Part shown: positions 12,052-18,848 of the stretch, one piece after another
How the letters are laid out: each line of letters starts with the position of its first letter
Numbering within the stretch: position 1 is the first letter of the stretch
NCBI GenBank assembly: GCA_964554485.1
Contig: CAZKOX010000001.1
Coordinates: 75,363 to 126,896, forward strand
DNA: 51,534 bases
Source of the DNA: an uncultured Candidatus Saccharibacteria bacterium
Lineage (GTDB): Bacteria; Patescibacteriota; Saccharimonadia; Saccharimonadales; JAGQMS01
Direction: 5' to 3'
Translations under genes and position numbers: made by a program
The notes under the pieces: model-generated
What the model was told of the DNA's origin: nothing
Databases searched by the model: none
Seen by the model: only the letters and a program-made list of their open reading frames with translations

Positions 12052-12576
12052 ATGCGAATAATCTCTGGTAACTTAGGTGGTCGAAACTTTACTGCACCGC
12101 ATGGACACAAAACTCATCCAATGAGTGAAAAGATTCGGGGAGCTATCTTTAATGCACTCGGTGATATTGACGGTCTTACTTTTTTAGATGCCTTTGGTGG
12201 AACAGGAGCAATTGGTTTTGAAGCTCTTAGCCGCGGTGCAAAATCTGTTATTGCGGTGGATATAAGCAAGGAAGCCCACGACTCTATGCAAAAGAGTATT
12301 AAGATGCTAGGGGTAGGGAATAGTTTTAAGGCTATTCGCGCCAACGTTGCTAGCTGGTGCGAGAATAATCCAGATGCAAGGTTCGACATAGTGGTAGCCG
12401 ATCCGCCATATGATGACGTACCTGAAAACATACTTAACGTGTTAAGTAATTTTGTTAAACCTGGTGGGTTATATATATTGTCGCTTCCAAAGTCCTGCGA
12501 ATTTGTGCCAAAAAATCTAGAACTTCTATCAAAAAAGATTTACGACGAAGCCACGGTCAGCTTTTATCGAGTATAG
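12052..12576 (+). CDS. rsmD: 16S rRNA m2G966 methyltransferase RsmD family
   Basis: MRIISG..G, LDAFGGTGAIGFEALSRGA, DPPY. Confidence 0.9.
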   Translation: MRIISGNLGGRNFTAPHGHKTHPMSEKIRGAIFNALGDIDGLTFLDAFGGTGAIGFEALSRGAKSVIAVDISKEAHDSMQKSIKMLGVGNSFKAIRANVASWCENNPDARFDIVVADPPYDDVPENILNVLSNFVKPGGLYILSLPKSCEFVPKNLELLSKKIYDEATVSFYRV

Positions 12577-12657
12577 GGGTCGACATTTTTAAGCGTACGA
12601 AGTAAAATAGCAAGCGTCGTTTATCCGAGTAGAAGAATCATTTACAATCAAAGATAT

Positions 12658-12796
12658 GCGCGGGTGGCGAAATGTGAAGAGTGCCGGTGGCACTATGCAA
12701 GACCGGAGCCCTGGATTGCGAATGCAACCAAGGCGAGGTGGGGGCGCGACCGATTTGGTGGCTAGCCACCAAGTAGAATCGTGCCAGACGCACTAG
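12658..12796 (+). pseudogene. 5' fragment of tRNA-Leu interrupted in the D-loop by a 111-nt structured element (copy 1)
   Basis: 12658-12674 equals the first 17 nt of the tRNA and 12786-12796 (AGACGCACTAG) equals tRNA nt 20-30; the intervening 12675-12785 replaces GT. Confidence 0.85.
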
Positions 12797-12856
12797 TAAA
12801 AAGAAATAGCGGCTGAAGTTGACGGGTGAGTAGGTATAATTAACAATCAAGAATAT

Positions 12857-12940
12857 GCGCGGGTGGCGAAATGGTAGACGCACTAGCCTTAGGAGCTAGC
12901 GAGGCAACTCATGGAGGTTCAAGTCCTCTCCCGCGCACCA
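12857..12940 (+). tRNA. tRNA-Leu(TAG)
   Basis: Acceptor GCGCGGG/CCCGCGC; D-loop GG; anticodon arm CTAGC-CTTAGGA-GCTAG; long variable arm; T-arm GGAGG-TTCAAGT-CCTCT; encoded CCA. Confidence 0.98.
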
Positions 12941-12949
12941 AAACAATAT

Positions 12950-12978
12950 GCCGACCCTTGTGGTCGGCTTGTTGCTTT
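12950..12978 (+). terminator. Intrinsic terminator after tRNA-Leu
   Basis: GCCGACC-CTTGT-GGTCGGC followed by TTGTTGCTTT. Confidence 0.7.
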
Positions 12979-12986
12979 GTAGCCGC

Positions 12987-13113
12987 AGGACTTGAACCGT
13001 AGGTGAGATGAGCCGGTGGCTCATCGCAAGGCAGCTTTTCAGATTCAAAGCTATGTTTTGAGTTTGAAAAGTGCGGGGGCGCAGAATGTGCCCAAGTCCT
13101 CTCCCGCGCACCA
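12987..13113 (+). mobile_element. Structured tRNA-associated element (copy 2) ending in a 21-nt duplication of the tRNA 3' end
   Basis: 13093-13113 equals tRNA 12920-12940; 12987-12998 is antisense to the tRNA T-arm; three internal hairpins; motifs shared with copy 1. Confidence 0.75.
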
Positions 13114-13182
13114 ACCAGTCGACTTTTAAAACCAAGTCATTATTGACTAGGGTATGTGTAAGATGAGATATAATTGCACATA

Positions 13183-13665
13183 ATGATACGCCGCACTACT
13201 GCCAGGCCTAAGATAGGCTCAGTGGCGGATAGCGCTGAGCCTGGTAGCACAGACCTTAGCCCAGTCACTGACCTTGACTCCTTCCGGAGACGAGGCCTAG
13301 AGCCGCAGTATCCACCGGATGAGCTGCTTGAGTCGGTTAAGCCAGCTACAGCATGGATGACCTACTTCGTTATAGAGCTACCGACTGCATCTGCCATCCA
13401 CCCAGCACTCTACGATTGTGTCGAAGAACTTCTCGTCGGGCGCCGTCCAGTACTTGATTGCCAGACAGAATCACTTCGTGTTGCTTGCTGGCTAGAGTCC
13501 GAGACACAGGCGACGGCCAATGAGGAGGCCTACGCGGTTGGTCAAGCAGTTGTTGATCTTCTCGGATTATCGCCGGCCTCGATAGTCGAACACGTTCATC
13601 GCTTCTGGACTCGCGCCGACGGAATGATCGACGAAGAGCTGCCGGTTTTGATTCCGTCACTCTGA
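13183..13665 (+). CDS. Hypothetical protein, high GC, probably horizontally acquired
   Basis: ORF 13174-13665 with first ATG at 13183; about 60% GC in two hand-counted 60-nt lines, visibly above the flanking core genes. Confidence 0.6.
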   Translation: MIRRTTARPKIGSVADSAEPGSTDLSPVTDLDSFRRRGLEPQYPPDELLESVKPATAWMTYFVIELPTASAIHPALYDCVEELLVGRRPVLDCQTESLRVACWLESETQATANEEAYAVGQAVVDLLGLSPASIVEHVHRFWTRADGMIDEELPVLIPSL

Positions 13666-13891
13666 CTATTCGCGAACACCCACGGCAATAGAGACAACGG
13701 CAGCCATCAGACGACCATATTAGACTAGGATGGTCAGGTAGCTGCCAACGGCGAGAAGTAGTAAAATATCTTCGGCTGGGTCAGTGGTTGTTCAGACGCT
13801 GATCAAATGAACCGGAGAGAGGCCGGGCACCCAGCCGCCTTGTAAGATGACAGGAGTAAGGTATATAGGCTTGACCTTAATAAACCCATAC

Positions 13892-14338
13892 CTATAGACC
13901 CAAAGGATGAAGAAGAATTGCGCCAACCTTGATTGCCAGATCCTGACGAGCAAGGGCGTGAAGTATTCCACTTTCCATGTCGGACACGGTCAAGCCATGA
14001 ACATCCGTCAATTCTTCTACGGTCTGATCATATGTAGCTTGATAATCTGGTGATGAGAAAACATAAAGGGCACTCAAATCATGGGCGATCCGGCATCCAC
14101 GAACCCATGTGGCCAGATTTGGGCCAACAGATTCGGGGTCTGAGACATAAAGAAAGCCGGTAGCATCCTGTATGTCGGTCCCTGGGAAATCAAACCCTCT
14201 TTCTAGCAGATGTTCAAGAATGGGTTTGCCTTCACCCGCAGCAATCTTGTCGTACAGAAATTGTGTACAACCGCGCGGATTGTGTCGTTGGAATGATGCT
14301 TCGAATTTGCTCCGGGTAATTACAGCCATCAGTGTCAT
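13892..14338 (-). CDS. Hypothetical protein
   Basis: 148-aa ORF with plausible globular composition, divergent from the WhiB-like gene. Confidence 0.6.
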   Translation of the reverse strand: MTLMAVITRSKFEASFQRHNPRGCTQFLYDKIAAGEGKPILEHLLERGFDFPGTDIQDATGFLYVSDPESVGPNLATWVRGCRIAHDLSALYVFSSPDYQATYDQTVEELTDVHGLTVSDMESGILHALARQDLAIKVGAILLHPLGL

Positions 14339-14500
14339 TATAAATTGCTTACCCTCGTTTTATGTGTTGTGGAATGCTCTACGACTGTCTAGAGCGGGGT
14401 TATCATTGGCTTGACTGTTAATAAACCACTAAGAGACCCCACTTGCCCTTGTAAACCTATGAACATGTTTTATTTCGTTAACATATATAATATGAATATT

Positions 14501-14806
14501 ATGAGCTTAGATAGTCAGCCTGATGGCTTAGGAAATAACTGGTGGGCAAATTGGGCGGCCTGCGAGCAGCCTGGTTATGTAATTGATGAAAACTTCATTG
14601 TTTCTCCAGAAGATATACTAAGATCACCAATTGATACATATCGTAGACGGAAAGCTGCAAGAGAAATATGTAATTTGTGCCCGTTTTTTGAGGAATGTGA
14701 ACAAAATGCCAAAAGTTTTAAGGGTGAAGAACATGGTCAATACGGCAGAATATACGCCGGTAGGATATCAGTTTTACTACCCTTGGTCGGTGTTGTGCGG
14801 CTTTAG
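14501..14806 (+). CDS. WhiB-like (Wbl) Fe-S transcription regulator
   Basis: W-A-A-C21-x35-C57-x2-C60-x5-C66 plus GRIYAG turn (canonical G[VI]WGG); likely start ATG 14501 within ORF 14411-14806. Confidence 0.7.
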   Translation: MSLDSQPDGLGNNWWANWAACEQPGYVIDENFIVSPEDILRSPIDTYRRRKAAREICNLCPFFEECEQNAKSFKGEEHGQYGRIYAGRISVLLPLVGVVRL

Positions 14807-14840
14807 ATACTTATAAAGAATCATAGGTTCAACTCTAACA

Positions 14841-14868
14841 TTGACAATACTGTTAAAGCTTATATAAT
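14841..14868 (+). promoter_or_regulatory. sigma70 promoter of the His leader / original hisS
   Basis: TTGACA-16nt-TATAAT. Confidence 0.75.
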
Positions 14869-14878
14869 ACTAAGCGTA

Positions 14879-14932
14879 ATGACAACTAATATCACCAGTC
14901 ATACACATCTGTCGCTCCGGTTGATCGGTTAA
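14879..14932 (+). CDS. Putative attenuator leader peptide MTTNITSHTHLSLRLIG
   Basis: 17-codon ORF right after the promoter, with His codons at positions 8 and 10, ending in the antiterminator arm. Confidence 0.6.
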   Translation: MTTNITSHTHLSLRLIG

Positions 14933-14953
14933 CTTTCGATTTATTCATATCTT

Positions 14954-14983
14954 AACGCTCCGATCTACGGAGCGTTTTTCTTT
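14954..14983 (+). terminator. Attenuator terminator
   Basis: AACGCTCCG-ATCTA-CGGAGCGTT followed by TTTCTTT. Confidence 0.85.
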
Positions 14984-15013
14984 ACAAAACAAACTAAATT
15001 ACTAAGGATGAGA

Positions 15014-15125
15014 TAAAATGAAAGCAAATATGTCACAAATTACACAAAGCTACAAAGGAACAAGAGATTTTTACCCCGAAGATAAACGCCTCCAGAAATG
15101 GATGTTTGGCGTAATGCGGTCGGCT
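15014..15125 (+). repeat. 112-bp perfect direct repeat of the hisS 5' end (left copy)
   Basis: Base-by-base identical to 18737-18848. Confidence 0.95.
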
Positions 15126-15158
15126 TGTTGTTTTGTAGCCGCAGGACTTGAACCGTAG
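15018..15158 (+). pseudogene. Truncated hisS fragment (36 HisS codons plus 10 element-derived codons)
   Basis: Same start as hisS; frame runs into element copy 3 and stops at TAG 15156-15158. Confidence 0.85.
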
Positions 15159-15177
15159 GTGAGAAGAGCCGGCGGCT
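15118..15177 (+). repeat. Partial copy 3 of the tRNA terminator arm plus structured element
   Basis: 57/60 nt identical to 12962-13021. Confidence 0.92.
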
Positions 15178-15251
15178 TACTAATGTATAGAATGTAGAAA
15201 AAATGCTAAAATTATCGTAAGAACTATGAGTTCAGATCATTTTGGGGTGAC

Positions 15252-18200
15252 ATGCAACAAAAAGTTATAAAAGCGATAAAAAACAAACTATTTCATTTGG
15301 CATTATTTGGTGCGCTACTGCTATTGGTACTGCTTAGCATTAATAATAAATCTGTGCATGCTACAACCTATAGGGACACTATCCTTGCCGAGCCTACGCT
15401 ACTGAACTATTGGCCGATGGATGAGGCTTCTGGTGCTACAAGCCTAAGTCCGGCAGCAGGTGGTACGGTAATTAATCTTACAGGGGCTACGGTAGGTTTA
15501 AGTGGTCAAGTCGACGGAACGGCAGTCTCGTTTAATGGCACAACAAACTTCGGTGTGACCGCATCAAATCTTGACTATACTTCGTACAGTAAACTTGTCG
15601 TTGAAGCACTAATCTTTGTTAGCAGTTACGATAACTCAATACGTATAACTTGGGAACTAAGTCCCTCGGCACTTTCTAATCAAGGAGCATTTTATTTTGC
15701 CCAGGATGTAGGCGGAACTAACAGCCCAACACTTAAGGGTGACGGGGGGTTTAATAACGCAGAATATACTAGACCATCTGCTGGGCAATGGCATCTTTTT
15801 ACGATGGTATACGACACAAGCCCTGGCTCCAATGAAGTAGAAGCATATATTGACGGCGACCTGCAGACTCCTACGAGTAGGCCATTTAACGTAAATAACA
15901 CAAATAACTTTGGAAACTTTGCCTTGTACTTAATGTCGCGAGGCGGTGGAAGTTTTTTTAGCGCTGGCAAGATGCAACACCTGGCAATATATAGTGACCT
16001 GAGTAGTAGCCAGATTGCATTGCATGCTCAAGCAGCGGGTTTGCGCGAACTTCTTCCTGGTACGCTTTCAGAAAGTTCTCGAACCACTACAAGTGCTACG
16101 GTCAGTTGGACTAGCGCAAGCAATGTGTTTAATCCACCTATTATCGCTCAACTACAGCGATCTGCCCATGGTGCGAACAGTTGGTCGAACGTTTCTGGTG
16201 CAACAAGTAGTCCGGCAGTAGACACAGGCTTGAGTGTAGATACAAGCTACGATTATCGAGTTGCTTATACGGACGCTACTGCAACAACTGTGTATTCAAA
16301 TACGCTCGTAGTTACGACCATGAAAGTCTATCCACCGTATACAGCAAATTCTGACACCGTAATTGTTGGTCCGTATGATACAGCCAGATCTGGTGCTGGC
16401 AATTGGAGCCCCGGAGCTGCCGGTTCTGTCCAGTGGCTTGTAGATGGTCATCAATATCGGGTCAGACAATCAGGAACAATCAATCGGCTTAGAATATATA
16501 CACCAAATAATACGAATCTCACTGGATTTTATCTACAAATATGGAGAAAAAATGGTACTACATACGATTTGGTCGGCCAAAGCAACAATATCGCTAGTAG
16601 TTTAGCAAATGCCAGCTTCTCAACTGTAGATTTATTAACCCCAATTTCGGGAGTTCAGATTGGCGATTTTTATGGGGCGCGTATGGAAACATCAGGTTCT
16701 GCTGCAAGTTTTTATGCATATAACCCTGGTAGCGTGGTTAGTAAATTTATCGTAAACCAAACTGCTTCGTTGACAGGGATGGATTGGGCAGCCCAATTTT
16801 CTTCAGCAACTGTCGTACCGATTGAAATGTATATGAGTCCTGCGCCACAAGTAGTGTTTATTGGTGACTCAATTTTCCAGGGCGTTCCTGGTAATTATAG
16901 TTTTTTGGATCCGACTGATACTACAAATTTAGCATCTTCGATCGAGGGTCAGTTTAGTGGTATAACGGGATATACCTATCAGAACATGGGTAAGGGAAGT
17001 GATACAACTGCGATTATAACCTCACGTTTTACCAATGACGTTATAAATTTGCACCCCAGAATCGTTGTTATGGAAGGTGGCGTGAATGATATATATGGTG
17101 GTGCGGTCACAAAGGCGCAATTTTTGGCTAACTGGACTACAAATCTTGCCGCCGCTCAAGCCAGCAGCAGCATTTCGAAAATATTGGTTTTAAAAATTTT
17201 GCCCTGGACTAATGGCACGAATGTACAGAATCAAACGAGAGATGATTGGAACGCTGCTTTAGAAACACTAGTTGCAAACTACTCTAAAGCTACAGTGGTG
17301 GACGCAAGCACATATGTAGGCCAATTTAGATCTGGGGGTGACGTAGGGAATCTATGGGATATACAAACAGCATTTAGCGCCGATGGCGTTCATTTTAACC
17401 AAACCGGACATGGCCAGATTGCTCAGGCGCTAGTGGATTCCATCGATACTACGATACCAACCATTACTAATATCTCTTCTAATAAGGTTAATGGTTATTA
17501 CAAAACAGGGGAAGTCATAGATATTGATATTACTTTTTCTGAAGCCGTAAGCTCGACTGGCGACGTGACAGTAACATTAGAAACTGGAGCAACCGACCGG
17601 ACTTGTACATTTACTGTCACTAGCAGCACAACCGGTACCTGCAACTATACTGTTCAAGCCGGGGATGCGTCAGATGACCTCACAGTTAGCTTAATTTCTG
17701 GTACTATCGCCGACGAAGTTGAAAACTCTATGTCCGTCTTTAGCCCTGTGACAAATCTTGCGGCGAATAAGACATTGATTATTGATACGAGAGCGCCAAC
17801 GATATCAGCCGTTACGCTAATATCATCCCCGACAAGTGATGTCACTCCAAGTTACGCCTTTACGACTGACGAGACTGGCACTGTCGGTTATGGCGGCGCT
17901 TGCAGCTCAACAACTACAACCGCGCTTGCTGGGGTTAACATCGTTACTTTTATATCATTAGCCGATGGAACATATACCAATTGTACGATTACAATTACCG
18001 ACACAGCTACAAATGTATCTAATACGCTAGCAGTAGCCAGCTTTACTATCGATACCTCTACGCCTGCATCAACATCAGCGCCTGCTCCTGTGACTGCAAC
18101 TTCTTCGACAATCGATGATATCCCTGAACCAGAAGTTGAGCAGGTAAGATATAACACAGTCACTTTCGCTAACTCTAGTAACGGTGCCGCTATCCAGCTT

Positions 18201-18686
18201 GAAACCCCTGAAGGCACTACAATAACTTGTTCTGCCTCAGTAGCTGAGAGTACGCTAAGTAACCAAGATTCTGAACATAGTTACCCCGTGGGACTAGTCG
18301 ACTTCTGCCTTACTGTACCTATCGGATCAACTAACACTATAAAACTAACATTTGTAACTAATCTTGCCCTAGATGACGTAATGGCGTTTAAATTCAGCAA
18401 CGAAGTCGGCACATATACAGAAGTGCGGAATGCAACTATTACAGAAACAATGTTAGGTAATCAGCGTGCCTTGTTGGTTGCTTACCAGGTAACAGATGGC
18501 GGCGAACTAGACGGCGACAGTACTGTAAACGGGACAATTCTTGATCCAATTGGGTTGGCTGCTTCTAATGATCCAGAGTCCAGTATCAGTACAACGACTC
18601 CACCGTATTTGTTGATTACGCTTAGCATAATTGGAGTTAGTGGGTTACTTATATTTATAGCAGCTAACATTAGGGCTAGGCGCTAG
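15252..18686 (+). CDS. Large surface protein: signal peptide, LamG/ConA-like, FN3, SGNH hydrolase, Ig-like repeats, choice-of-anchor-U-like domain, C-terminal TM
   Basis: Signal ending VHA; LLNYWPMDE..WHLFTMVYD..YIDG (LamG); FIGDSI, GGVND and DGVH (SGNH blocks); DGGELDGDSTVNGTILDP; hydrophobic tail plus RARR. Confidence 0.8.
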   Translation: MQQKVIKAIKNKLFHLALFGALLLLVLLSINNKSVHATTYRDTILAEPTLLNYWPMDEASGATSLSPAAGGTVINLTGATVGLSGQVDGTAVSFNGTTNFGVTASNLDYTSYSKLVVEALIFVSSYDNSIRITWELSPSALSNQGAFYFAQDVGGTNSPTLKGDGGFNNAEYTRPSAGQWHLFTMVYDTSPGSNEVEAYIDGDLQTPTSRPFNVNNTNNFGNFALYLMSRGGGSFFSAGKMQHLAIYSDLSSSQIALHAQAAGLRELLPGTLSESSRTTTSATVSWTSASNVFNPPIIAQLQRSAHGANSWSNVSGATSSPAVDTGLSVDTSYDYRVAYTDATATTVYSNTLVVTTMKVYPPYTANSDTVIVGPYDTARSGAGNWSPGAAGSVQWLVDGHQYRVRQSGTINRLRIYTPNNTNLTGFYLQIWRKNGTTYDLVGQSNNIASSLANASFSTVDLLTPISGVQIGDFYGARMETSGSAASFYAYNPGSVVSKFIVNQTASLTGMDWAAQFSSATVVPIEMYMSPAPQVVFIGDSIFQGVPGNYSFLDPTDTTNLASSIEGQFSGITGYTYQNMGKGSDTTAIITSRFTNDVINLHPRIVVMEGGVNDIYGGAVTKAQFLANWTTNLAAAQASSSISKILVLKILPWTNGTNVQNQTRDDWNAALETLVANYSKATVVDASTYVGQFRSGGDVGNLWDIQTAFSADGVHFNQTGHGQIAQALVDSIDTTIPTITNISSNKVNGYYKTGEVIDIDITFSEAVSSTGDVTVTLETGATDRTCTFTVTSSTTGTCNYTVQAGDASDDLTVSLISGTIADEVENSMSVFSPVTNLAANKTLIIDTRAPTISAVTLISSPTSDVTPSYAFTTDETGTVGYGGACSSTTTTALAGVNIVTFISLADGTYTNCTITITDTATNVSNTLAVASFTIDTSTPASTSAPAPVTATSSTIDDIPEPEVEQVRYNTVTFANSSNGAAIQLETPEGTTITCSASVAESTLSNQDSEHSYPVGLVDFCLTVPIGSTNTIKLTFVTNLALDDVMAFKFSNEVGTYTEVRNATITETMLGNQRALLVAYQVTDGGELDGDSTVNGTILDPIGLAASNDPESSISTTTPPYLLITLSIIGVSGLLIFIAANIRARR

Positions 18687-18736
18687 CTTAACCAGAAACT
18701 ACTATGCAAACCAGCTATAAATTACTAAATATGCAG

Positions 18737-18848
18737 TAAAATGAAAGCAAATATGTCACAAATTACACAAAGCTACAAAGGAACAAGAGATTTTTACCCC
18801 GAAGATAAACGCCTCCAGAAATGGATGTTTGGCGTAATGCGGTCGGCT
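18737..18848 (+). repeat. 112-bp direct repeat (right copy, start of intact hisS)
   Basis: Identical to 15014-15125. Confidence 0.95.

What the first reader, a model, noticed from the sequence alone, without database searches (positions are those of the whole stretch)
12987..13100. Antisense T-arm copy clamps element 2 into a closed multi-branch structure
Seen: AGGACTTGAACC (12987-12998) is the perfect 12-nt reverse complement of the tRNA T-arm (12916-12927), and its first 8 nt also complement CAAGTCCT (13093-13100) of the duplicated 3' end. It can therefore either close the element or invade the real tRNA in a read-through transcript. Inference: terminal inverted repeats of a MITE-like unit derived from the T-loop, a switch affecting pre-tRNA processing, or a decoy att site absorbing tRNA-targeting integrases.
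Basis: partly seen in the sequence, partly recalled or inferred. Interest (0 to 1): 0.6.

Follow-up and report, generated by a model that had tools for sequence, protein, structure and literature searches.

The report
tRNA-linked fold-back element in Saccharibacteria
The antisense T-arm is real: it is the best-kept part of a decayed inverted copy of the tRNA-Leu 3' half, and belongs to a widespread, apparently undescribed family of small folded gene-less modules beside tRNA genes of Saccharibacteria.

Summary
AGGACTTGAACC (12987-12998) is a perfect reverse complement of the tRNA-Leu(TAG) T-arm (12916-12927), and its first 8 nt pair with the duplicated tail at 13093-13100. This is far more than chance gives.

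It is not an isolated oddity. The layout is: tRNA, bidirectional terminator, decayed antisense copy of the tRNA 3' half, a short sense stub (GTAGGT), a ~90-nt three-hairpin core (E2, 13002-13093), then a 22-nt tRNA tail copy.

- The same layout follows Leu, His, Arg, Lys, Gln and Glu tRNAs in many Saccharimonadales families.
- The antisense piece tracks its own tRNA: best match in 12 of 15 modules, p <= 5e-5.
- The core shows compensatory base changes in all three hairpins. It occurs in 27 of 41 related genomes (up to 19 copies), matches no Rfam family, and gave no hit in phage or plasmid collections.
- A longer relative (E1, 12673-12785) splits a 5' tRNA-Leu fragment upstream.

Best reading: a gene-less DNA insertion module that recombines with tRNA genes and rebuilds them. 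The antisense strand acts as a splint that loops the core out. The enzyme and the mechanism are unproven.

Earlier follow-ups of this scan described the same family in at least eight other genomes.

The parts
12637..12674 (+). Displaced 5' fragment of the tRNA-Leu locus: 21 nt of upstream flank plus tRNA positions 1-17
   Evidence: 38-nt direct repeat with 12836-12873, 89% identical (D1). The 17-nt tRNA start is repeated exactly.
12673..12785 (+). E1, a long-type member of the structured element family, sitting in the D-loop of the 5' tRNA fragment
   Evidence: Aligns with 7 relatives (A2). The consensus fold has 23 pairs, 15 of them with compensatory changes. It shares the 5' hairpin and the GCAAG and GGGG motifs with E2.
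12786..12796 (+). Short continuation of the tRNA (AGACGCACTAG, the 3' side of the D-arm) directly after E1
   Evidence: Identical to 12876-12886 of the tRNA (D3).
12857..12940 (+). Functional tRNA-Leu(TAG)
   Evidence: ARAGORN; Rfam tRNA, 58.6 bits.
12939..12979 (+). Bidirectional intrinsic terminator: stem-loop 12950-12968 with A- and T-rich flanks. It is the centre of the palindrome formed by the tRNA 3' half and its antisense copy.
   Evidence: Terminator scan finds it on both strands; inverted repeat I2. It resembles the terminator behind tRNA-Leu(TAG) in G002, which has no module.
12977..12998 (+). Decayed antisense copy of the tRNA-Leu 3' half. Its well-kept core, AGGACTTGAACC (12987-12998), is the finding.
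   Evidence: The reverse complement of the spacer aligns with the tRNA 3' half at 21/27, z = 4.0 (L053). Perfect 12-nt inverted repeat (I6).
12999..13004 (+). Sense stub GTAGGT, the remnant of the tRNA stretch just 5' of the T-loop (GGAGGT). Relatives have an 8-10-nt stub.
   Evidence: Comparison of 16 modules.
13002..13093 (+). E2, a short-type three-hairpin core element
   Evidence: Alignment A1 of 13 copies: 32 consensus pairs, 22 with compensatory changes. Covariance model R1 matches here at 94.5 bits.
13093..13114 (+). Displaced tRNA-Leu tail, from the T-loop CAAGTCC through CCA plus 1 nt
   Evidence: 22/22 identical to 12920-12941 (D4).
15115..15177 (+). Second, truncated copy of the terminator arm, the antisense T-arm (15143-15154), the stub and the first ~20 nt of the core. 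It is fused to a hisS 5' fragment.
   Evidence: 63-nt direct repeat with 12959-13021, 94% identical. The fusion runs through the 8-nt microhomology GGTCGGCT.

Best explanation
The region is one copy of a family of gene-less, tRNA-linked insertion modules confined, so far, to Saccharibacteria. The organism is a Saccharimonadales (TM7) bacterium with a 0.66-Mb genome.

Each downstream-type module reads, after the intact tRNA and its terminator:
1. an inverted copy of that tRNA's 3' half;
2. a short loop;
3. a sense stub ending ...GGT;
4. a conserved ~90-nt three-hairpin core;
5. the tRNA tail from the T-loop to CCA.

A mirror-image upstream type, here E1, has a 5' tRNA fragment, the core, a short continuation of the tRNA, a new promoter and then the intact tRNA.

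Both layouts are what results if a unit of about 170-200 nt carrying a core-interrupted tRNA fragment recombines with the resident tRNA gene. The gene is rebuilt and one of its ends is displaced.

Shown here: the family, its structure, its tRNA linkage, the tracking of the cognate tRNA, replacement of tRNA-end alleles, presence and absence among close relatives, and near-identical spacer DNA shared between families.

Inferred: the antisense T-arm works at the level of a single strand, most likely DNA. It pairs with both the sense stub and the tail. The module then mimics the intact duplex T-arm of the target gene, with the core looped out exactly at the crossover point. This is comparable to the folded attP of phage CTX or to integron attC sites, and a host recombinase would act on it.

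In the integrated double-stranded state the antisense copy is no longer needed and decays. This is why only 12 nt remain perfect here.
For: Observation and folds.

Core element as a structured family:
- 22 of 32 pairs (short type) and 15 of 23 pairs (long type) show compensatory changes.
- The model finds 1-19 copies in 27 of 41 genomes of the order.
- The motif scan of species genomes hits almost only Saccharibacteria or Saccharimonadales MAGs.

tRNA linkage:
- Eight of the nine copies or fragments in the own genome lie on the same strand as, and beside, a tRNA or tRNA fragment. The ninth is inside topA.
- At least 24 of 30 fetched loci have a same-strand tRNA or tRNA end within about 90 nt (sequences).
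- The 3' flank equals the cognate tRNA tail in 15 of 16 modules.

Antisense piece:
- It is an inverted copy of the whole 3' half (z > 2 in 13 of 15).
- It tracks the cognate tRNA (12 of 15 best, p <= 5e-5).

Mobility:
- G002, of the same genus, has rsmD, tRNA-Leu(TAG) and a terminator with neither E1 nor E2.
- G032, of another family, shares 92-97% identity over the 62-nt terminator-plus-antisense spacer, with the same left boundary and the same start of the displaced tail but a different core.
- Displaced tails differ from the resident tRNA ends (own genome C13; L062, L065 and L070).
- A long-type core sits alone in the 3' end of topA in this genome but not in G001 or G002.

Plausibility of a single-strand stage: Saccharibacteria are naturally competent (PMC10633639, found).
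Against: - No enzyme is tied to the modules. TnpB and reverse transcriptase were not found in the own genome. Y1 transposases do not correlate with copy number.
- Large serine recombinases are common at tRNA 3' ends. However, they were not found in some genomes that have the element, including the complete G008.
- No free circular or single-stranded form was or could be observed.
- The motif scan found no full copy in viral contigs, and the E2 module gave no meaningful match in phage or plasmid records.
- The topA and intergenic copies show that the core can also sit without tRNA parts. This fits an independently mobile core better than a central att module.
- Copies at the same tRNA in different families, such as tRNA-Pro(UGG) in G000 and G015 at ~80% identity, could mean old, retained, possibly functional RNA rather than recent mobility.
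Confidence: 0.5

Rival explanations
1. The core is an independent miniature insertion element that targets ...GGT in the loops of tRNA-like DNA. It survives only in dispensable partial tRNA copies. Those partial copies, and the antisense piece, are left by other integrative elements, chiefly islands with large serine recombinases, whose att sites are dyad-symmetric.
For: - Core-only insertions exist in topA and in intergenic DNA.
- Insertions lie after GGT or GT in D-, anticodon- and T-loops.
- Large serine recombinase genes are found in 32 of 41 genomes. They often lie convergent with, or overlap, tRNA 3' ends.
- A tandem 4.1-kb recombinase element in G010 has the module at its junction.
Against: - The module is stereotyped: 46-91 nt from tRNA to core, with the same order of parts behind seven kinds of tRNA. 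Random remnants of large islands would not look like this.
- No transposase correlates with the element.
- The recombinase-side junction (tRNA followed by the recombinase gene) has no terminator or antisense copy.
- No partial tRNA copy with the antisense layout but without a core was seen.
Confidence: 0.22
2. The module is a functional RNA made from tRNA operon transcripts, comparable to RtT of the E. coli tyrT operon. The antisense piece would regulate folding or processing of the tRNA precursor or of the core RNA.
For: - All hairpins show compensatory changes.
- The element always has the same orientation as the tRNA.
- It is retained in 0.6-1.3-Mb streamlined genomes, and at the same tRNAs across families.
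- A promoter-like site lies upstream of the E1 fragment.
- In silico, the antisense piece pairs either with the real T-arm or with the tail.
Against: - A strong bidirectional terminator separates the tRNA from E2.
- The antisense copies are decayed.
- The distribution is patchy: no copy was found in 14 of 41 relatives, and neither E1 nor E2 is at the orthologous locus in G002.
- There is no Rfam match, RtT included, even at E <= 10.
Confidence: 0.15
3. The sense-antisense-sense arrangement is a passive scar of replication template switching, or fold-back repair, at the terminator palindrome. The antisense T-arm has no role.
For: - The palindrome is centred on the terminator.
- Elsewhere in the same region there is a microhomology junction of the illegitimate-recombination type.
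Against: - The terminator behind the tRNA and the sequence behind the displaced tail differ, which is not expected from a simple template switch.
- The same layout recurs independently at many tRNAs, always with a conserved core at the same T-loop position.
- Near-identical spacers are shared between families.
Confidence: 0.08
4. Decoy att site: the interrupted tRNA tail absorbs tRNA-targeting integrases and so protects the real gene.
For: Integrases that target tRNA 3' ends are abundant in these genomes. In G010 a recombinase element abuts the tail copy of a module.
Against: The core splits the copy in the T-loop, so one half-site of any att site centred there is lost. No enrichment of islands behind modules was shown.
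Confidence: 0.05

Closest known systems
Genomic islands and prophages integrated in tRNA or tmRNA genes (Islander-type islands, PMC4383910; tycheposons, bioRxiv 10.1101/2020.12.28.424599)
   Same: The target tRNA is regenerated, and a displaced fragment of it forms a direct repeat at the other end of the insert. The displaced end can be a different allele. Arrays of partial tRNA copies build up.
   Different: The insert is only ~150-200 nt and carries no integrase or cargo. It holds an inverted copy of the tRNA half, and a conserved structured core sits exactly at the junction. A 5'-end version also exists.
Folded single-strand recombination sites: phage CTX attP(+) used by XerCD, and integron attC sites (my own knowledge, not tested here)
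   Same: Inverted repeats let one strand fold into a duplex that imitates the target, with an unpaired central part. Structure is conserved more than sequence. An inverted copy remains next to the junction after integration.
   Different: The target here is a tRNA gene, not dif or attI. The unpaired part would be a 90-nt three-hairpin module. No recombinase has been linked and no single-strand stage shown.
RtT repeats behind tyrT/tyrV of E. coli (Rfam RF00391).
   Same: Units of under 200 nt lie behind a tRNA gene, each ending in a copy of the tRNA's 3' end.
   Different: There is no sequence or structure match. RtT has no reported antisense tRNA copy, and it is a single-locus feature rather than a multi-tRNA, multi-genome family.
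Miniature non-autonomous elements with hairpins (IS200/IS605-derived PATEs, REP/REPIN-RAYT elements, Rickettsia palindromic elements)
   Same: Small, multi-copy, hairpin-rich and patchily distributed. There are no terminal inverted repeats of their own. One copy is tolerated inside a protein-coding gene (topA).
   Different: No correlated Y1 transposase and no TnpB. The element is strictly linked to and co-oriented with tRNAs. The arms are derived from the target.

Membership tests
tRNA-integrating genomic island or att scar | Regenerated tRNA plus a displaced 3' fragment as a direct repeat | tested here: met
   22-nt exact repeat 12920-12941 / 13093-13114.
tRNA-integrating genomic island or att scar | An integrase gene and cargo between the repeats | tested here: not met
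   Only 151 nt lie between the repeats, with no plausible gene. The own genome has one tyrosine recombinase, on C15, and one large serine recombinase, on C4; both lie elsewhere.
MITE (transposase-derived miniature element) | Terminal inverted repeats that belong to the element and are the same in all copies | tested here: not met
   The inverted 8-12-mers change with the neighbouring tRNA. The conserved core starts GGTGAG and ends GTGAC/GTGCC, with no matching inverted ends.
MITE (transposase-derived miniature element) | Short target-site duplication of fixed length | tested here: not met
   The repeats are 22 and 38 nt here and vary between loci. The topA copy shows no evident duplication.
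IS200/IS605-derived PATE or TnpB omega-RNA | A cognate Y1 transposase or TnpB in genomes that carry the element | tested here: not met
   PF07282 was found in 1 of 41 genomes, and that genome has no copy. PF01797 was found in 12 of 41, with no relation to copy number.
RtT RNA (RF00391) and other Rfam families | A match to the covariance model | tested here: not met
   No hit other than tRNA at gathering score. Nothing relevant at E <= 10 over 12300-13500.
Group I / group II or other self-splicing tRNA intron | The element interrupts an otherwise complete, sole copy of the gene, with both exons whole | tested here: not met
   In every tRNA-linked module examined, one exon is a stub. In nearly all of them an intact tRNA copy lies alongside.
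Folded single-strand att site (CTX attP / attC type) | Inverted repeats that fold into a mimic of the duplex target with an unpaired centre | tested here: inconclusive
   In silico, the antisense piece pairs with the tail and, in relatives, with the sense stub, so the core is looped out. This is only a prediction.
Folded single-strand att site (CTX attP / attC type) | A recombinase acting on the folded strand; a single-stranded intermediate | not testable with these tools
   This needs biochemistry or genetics. Natural competence of Saccharibacteria (PMC10633639) only makes single-stranded DNA in the cell plausible.

The most novel reading that the evidence does not exclude
The modules are a new class of enzyme-less integrative element. 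An ~170-200-nt single strand folds, by means of the antisense tRNA copy, into an imitation of the T-arm (or D-arm) duplex of a tRNA gene, with a three-hairpin core at the crossover. A host recombinase of these naturally competent, ultra-small bacteria then inserts it. This would be a tRNA-gene counterpart of CTX-phage or attC recombination.
Probability: 0.25. Interest if true: 0.85.

Novelty: new variant of a known kind. Interest (0 to 1): 0.62.

Why it matters
Saccharibacteria have some of the smallest bacterial genomes, yet they keep up to 19 copies of this element next to essential single-copy tRNA genes.

If the modules are mobile, they are the smallest known units that integrate into tRNA genes while rebuilding them. 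They would show how tRNA ends, promoters and terminators are swapped between lineages that have few classical mobile elements.

If the core is instead a functional RNA, it is an uncatalogued, lineage-wide RNA class.

Either way, the family explains assembly breaks and odd partial tRNAs in TM7 genomes. The folded, target-mimicking architecture can be tested in the cultivable, naturally transformable strains.

Tried and rejected
1. Remnant of an antisense tRNA gene. On the minus strand the flanks of GGTTCAAGTCCT do not form a T-stem (read).
2. The 12-mer as coding sequence. The copy at 15143-15154 reads AGLEP* at the end of a short ORF that begins like HisRS. That ORF is a chimera: the first 107 nt of hisS joined to a module copy.
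3. Guide-RNA scaffold with the tRNA tail as guide (TnpB or IscB type). TnpB was found in only 1 of 41 genomes.
4. IS200/IS605 miniature element. The Y1 transposase does not correlate with the element.
5. Retroelement or primer-binding site. No reverse transcriptase in the own genome.
6. Known RNA family or ribozyme. Rfam gives nothing.
7. Phage or plasmid origin. The E2 module gave only two short, marginal hits to Salmonella phages and none to plasmid records. The motif scan of IMG/VR viral contigs gave only matches to the first ~35 nt, in unrelated contigs.
8. Large serine recombinase as the obligatory partner. It is often nearby, but it was not found in several genomes that carry the element.
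9. Literature searches for a description of the family found nothing.

Full report
OBSERVATION

The window holds one tRNA gene, tRNA-Leu(TAG), at 12857-12940. AGGACTTGAACC at 12987-12998 is a perfect 12-nt reverse complement of its T-arm at 12916-12927 (I6). The last 22 nt of the tRNA, plus one base, are repeated exactly at 13093-13114 (D4). The first 8 nt of the antisense piece therefore also pair with 13093-13100. With one mismatch allowed, the 12-mer occurs three times in the window against 0.13 expected, and no shuffle reaches three. The third copy is at 15143-15154.

ANATOMY AROUND THE tRNA

Upstream, 12637-12674 repeats the 21 nt before the tRNA and its first 17 nt (D1). A 113-nt insert, E1 (12673-12785), follows, and then 11 nt that continue the tRNA (12786-12796).

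Downstream come, in order:
- a bidirectional terminator, stem-loop 12950-12968;
- the antisense piece;
- GTAGGT;
- a 92-nt insert, E2 (13002-13093);
- the tail copy.

E1 and E2 share a 5' hairpin with compensatory differences and the motifs GCAAG and GGGG.

A FAMILY, NOT A ONE-OFF

The genome has 0.66 Mb in 23 contigs. A motif scan of species genomes places the element almost only in Candidatus Saccharibacteria or Saccharimonadales MAGs, so this is a TM7 bacterium.

DNA searches in 40 relatives of the order found E1- and E2-like inserts beside many tRNAs.
- Thirteen short-type copies fold into three hairpins with 32 consensus pairs, 22 of them with compensatory changes.
- Eight long-type copies give 23 pairs, 15 compensatory.
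- A covariance model finds 1-19 copies in 27 of 41 genomes, a patchy distribution.
- Rfam has no matching family.

In the own genome, eight of the nine copies or fragments lie beside, and on the same strand as, a tRNA or tRNA fragment: Leu-TAG (three, counting the truncated copy at 15115-15177), Glu-CTC, Leu-CAA, Pro-TGG, Gln-CTG and Glu-TTC. The ninth lies in the 3' end of topA.

TWO STEREOTYPED LAYOUTS

Downstream type, 16 loci behind Leu, His, Arg, Gly, Lys, Gln and Glu tRNAs: intact tRNA, terminator, about 10 nt, an antisense stretch, a 4-11-nt loop, a sense stub of 8-10 nt ending GGT, the core, then the tRNA tail from the T-loop to CCA.

Upstream type: a 5' tRNA fragment up to the D-, anticodon- or T-loop, the core, 9-31 nt that continue the tRNA, a promoter-like stretch, then the intact tRNA. 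The window has both types around one tRNA, as does G004.

WHAT THE ANTISENSE PIECE IS

The reverse complement of the post-terminator spacer aligns with the whole 3' half of the cognate tRNA, in several cases through CCA. The z-score exceeds 2 in 13 of 15 modules and reaches 10. The 12-mer is therefore the best-preserved part of a decayed inverted copy of tRNA positions ~43-76, mirrored about the terminator.

It does. The own tRNA is the best match in 12 of 15 modules, and a permutation test gives p <= 5e-5.

The inverted 8-12-mers change with the tRNA, so they are target-derived. They are not the terminal repeats of a transposon.

The antisense strand is complementary to an uninterrupted T-arm. 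It can therefore pair with the sense stub on one side of the core and with the tail on the other, looping the core out. Folding the window's module alone gives exactly this closed structure (z = -4.4). With the tRNA included, the antisense piece pairs with the real T-arm.

EVIDENCE FOR DNA-LEVEL INSERTION AND TRANSFER

- G002, of the same genus, has rsmD, tRNA-Leu(TAG) and a similar terminator, with neither E1 nor E2.
- G039 has hisS about 0.9 kb behind tRNA-Leu(TAG). Window 12941-18717 is therefore inserted DNA.
- G032, of another family, shares 92-97% identity with the 62-nt terminator-plus-antisense spacer. The left boundary (GGACTTGAACCGTAG) and the start of the displaced tail (CAAGTCCTCTC) are the same, but the core between them is different. 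The same variant core is also seen in G010 and in G037. G037 is unpublished, and no claim here rests on it alone.
- Displaced tails can differ from the resident tRNA end, as expected if the incoming unit brings its own tRNA end.
- In contig C13 a core that is intact in G001 has been deleted, leaving GGTGAA.
- The topA copy is absent from G001 and G002. The ancestral C-terminal tail is still in frame if the 106 nt are removed.

WHAT MOVES IT IS NOT SETTLED

TnpB and reverse transcriptase were not found in the own genome. TnpB was found in only 1 of 41 genomes, and Y1 transposases are uncorrelated with copy number.

Large serine recombinases are frequent (32 of 41 genomes). They typically lie convergent with, or overlap, a tRNA 3' end, including tRNA-Pro(UGG) on contig C4 of this genome. 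G010 holds a tandem 4.1-kb recombinase element whose junction is a complete module. Even so, several genomes with the element, among them the complete G008, show no such recombinase.

Phage, plasmid and viral-contig collections hold no full copy.

MOST LIKELY MECHANISM

Both layouts equal the product of one crossover between the resident tRNA gene and a ~170-200-nt unit carrying a core-interrupted tRNA fragment. The crossover would fall in the longer tRNA arm.

A double-stranded circle of that size is hard to bend. The antisense copy is also complementary to the uninterrupted target. I therefore favour a folded single strand as the active form. The antisense arm would splint stub and tail into a mimic of the T-arm duplex, and the core would be the unpaired centre at the crossover. 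This is analogous to CTX-phage attP or integron attC, which I cite from my own knowledge.

Natural competence of Saccharibacteria makes intracellular single-stranded DNA plausible (PMC10633639). This step is inference. I give the family-level, DNA-module reading about 0.8 and the folded-strand mechanism about 0.3.

Rivals are an independently mobile core landing in leftover tRNA pieces, an RtT-like RNA function, a template-switch scar, and a decoy att site.

COMPARISON AND NOVELTY

The closest known things are tRNA-integrating islands and their scars, folded single-strand att sites, RtT repeats, and hairpin-rich miniature elements. The module fails a defining feature of each one that could be tested. 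It has no integrase or cargo, no own terminal repeats or fixed duplication, no correlated transposase, no Rfam match, and no complete exon pair. Literature searches found no description.

Earlier follow-ups of this scan described the same family in at least eight other genomes. I reached the same picture before reading them. New here, as far as those short notes show:
- the upstream (5'-end) layout and the long-type core;
- the topA insertion;
- the quantitative tracking test;
- the finding that the antisense piece spans the whole 3' half;
- the recombinase context.

Noticed in passing
window 14995-15125 and 18718-18848: The first 107 nt of hisS, plus 23 nt upstream, are duplicated at 96% identity. 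The two copies flank a 3.7-kb segment carrying a 1144-aa GDSL-lipase-like gene (15252-18686). The upstream copy is fused at 15117-15125 to a module copy through the 8-nt microhomology GGTCGGCT. This looks like homology-facilitated illegitimate recombination after DNA uptake.
   Followed up: partly
window 13115-14840: A GC-rich segment (52% against ~43%) lies between the displaced tRNA tail and the old hisS leader. It has three small ORFs: 13174-13665, 13892-14338 (minus strand) and 14411-14806, the last weakly WhiB-like. It looks like foreign cargo. Two of the ORFs have no Pfam match.
   Followed up: partly
L076 369-474 (own genome, contig C3:37868-37973, minus strand): A 106-nt long-type core is inserted in the 3' end of topA. 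Read through, it gives a new basic 21-residue tail. The ancestral tail (…TTKRxV…KKK*) remains in frame downstream. G001 and G002 lack the insert.
   Followed up: yes
L111 410-2318 (own genome, contig C4): In order: a 5' fragment of tRNA-Pro(UGG), a core, the intact tRNA-Pro, then a 565-aa large serine recombinase. The last codons of the recombinase (…GRG*) are encoded on the strand opposite the tRNA's 3' end. G015 (another family) has the same arrangement at ~80% identity, and G030 has it at tRNA-Leu(TAG).
   Followed up: partly
L013 1591-1800; L073 1660-1760; L111 9960-10100 (minus strand): Other core types occupy the same slot between the sense stub and the tRNA tail. One variant keeps only the GCC-NGT-GGC-topped 5' hairpin. 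A ~63-nt variant lies behind a tRNA at the end of contig C4.
   Followed up: partly
L110 1-8260 (G010 contig C16): A 4101-bp unit is duplicated in tandem. It holds a large serine recombinase, two ORFs without Pfam matches, a decayed tRNA, a terminator, an antisense piece, a core and a tRNA tail.
   Followed up: partly
own genome contig C1:43163-43660 (about 32 kb before the window): A GC-rich cluster of three tRNA-like genes without encoded CCA. ARAGORN calls one of them anticodon TCA ('SeC') and leaves one undetermined.
   Followed up: no
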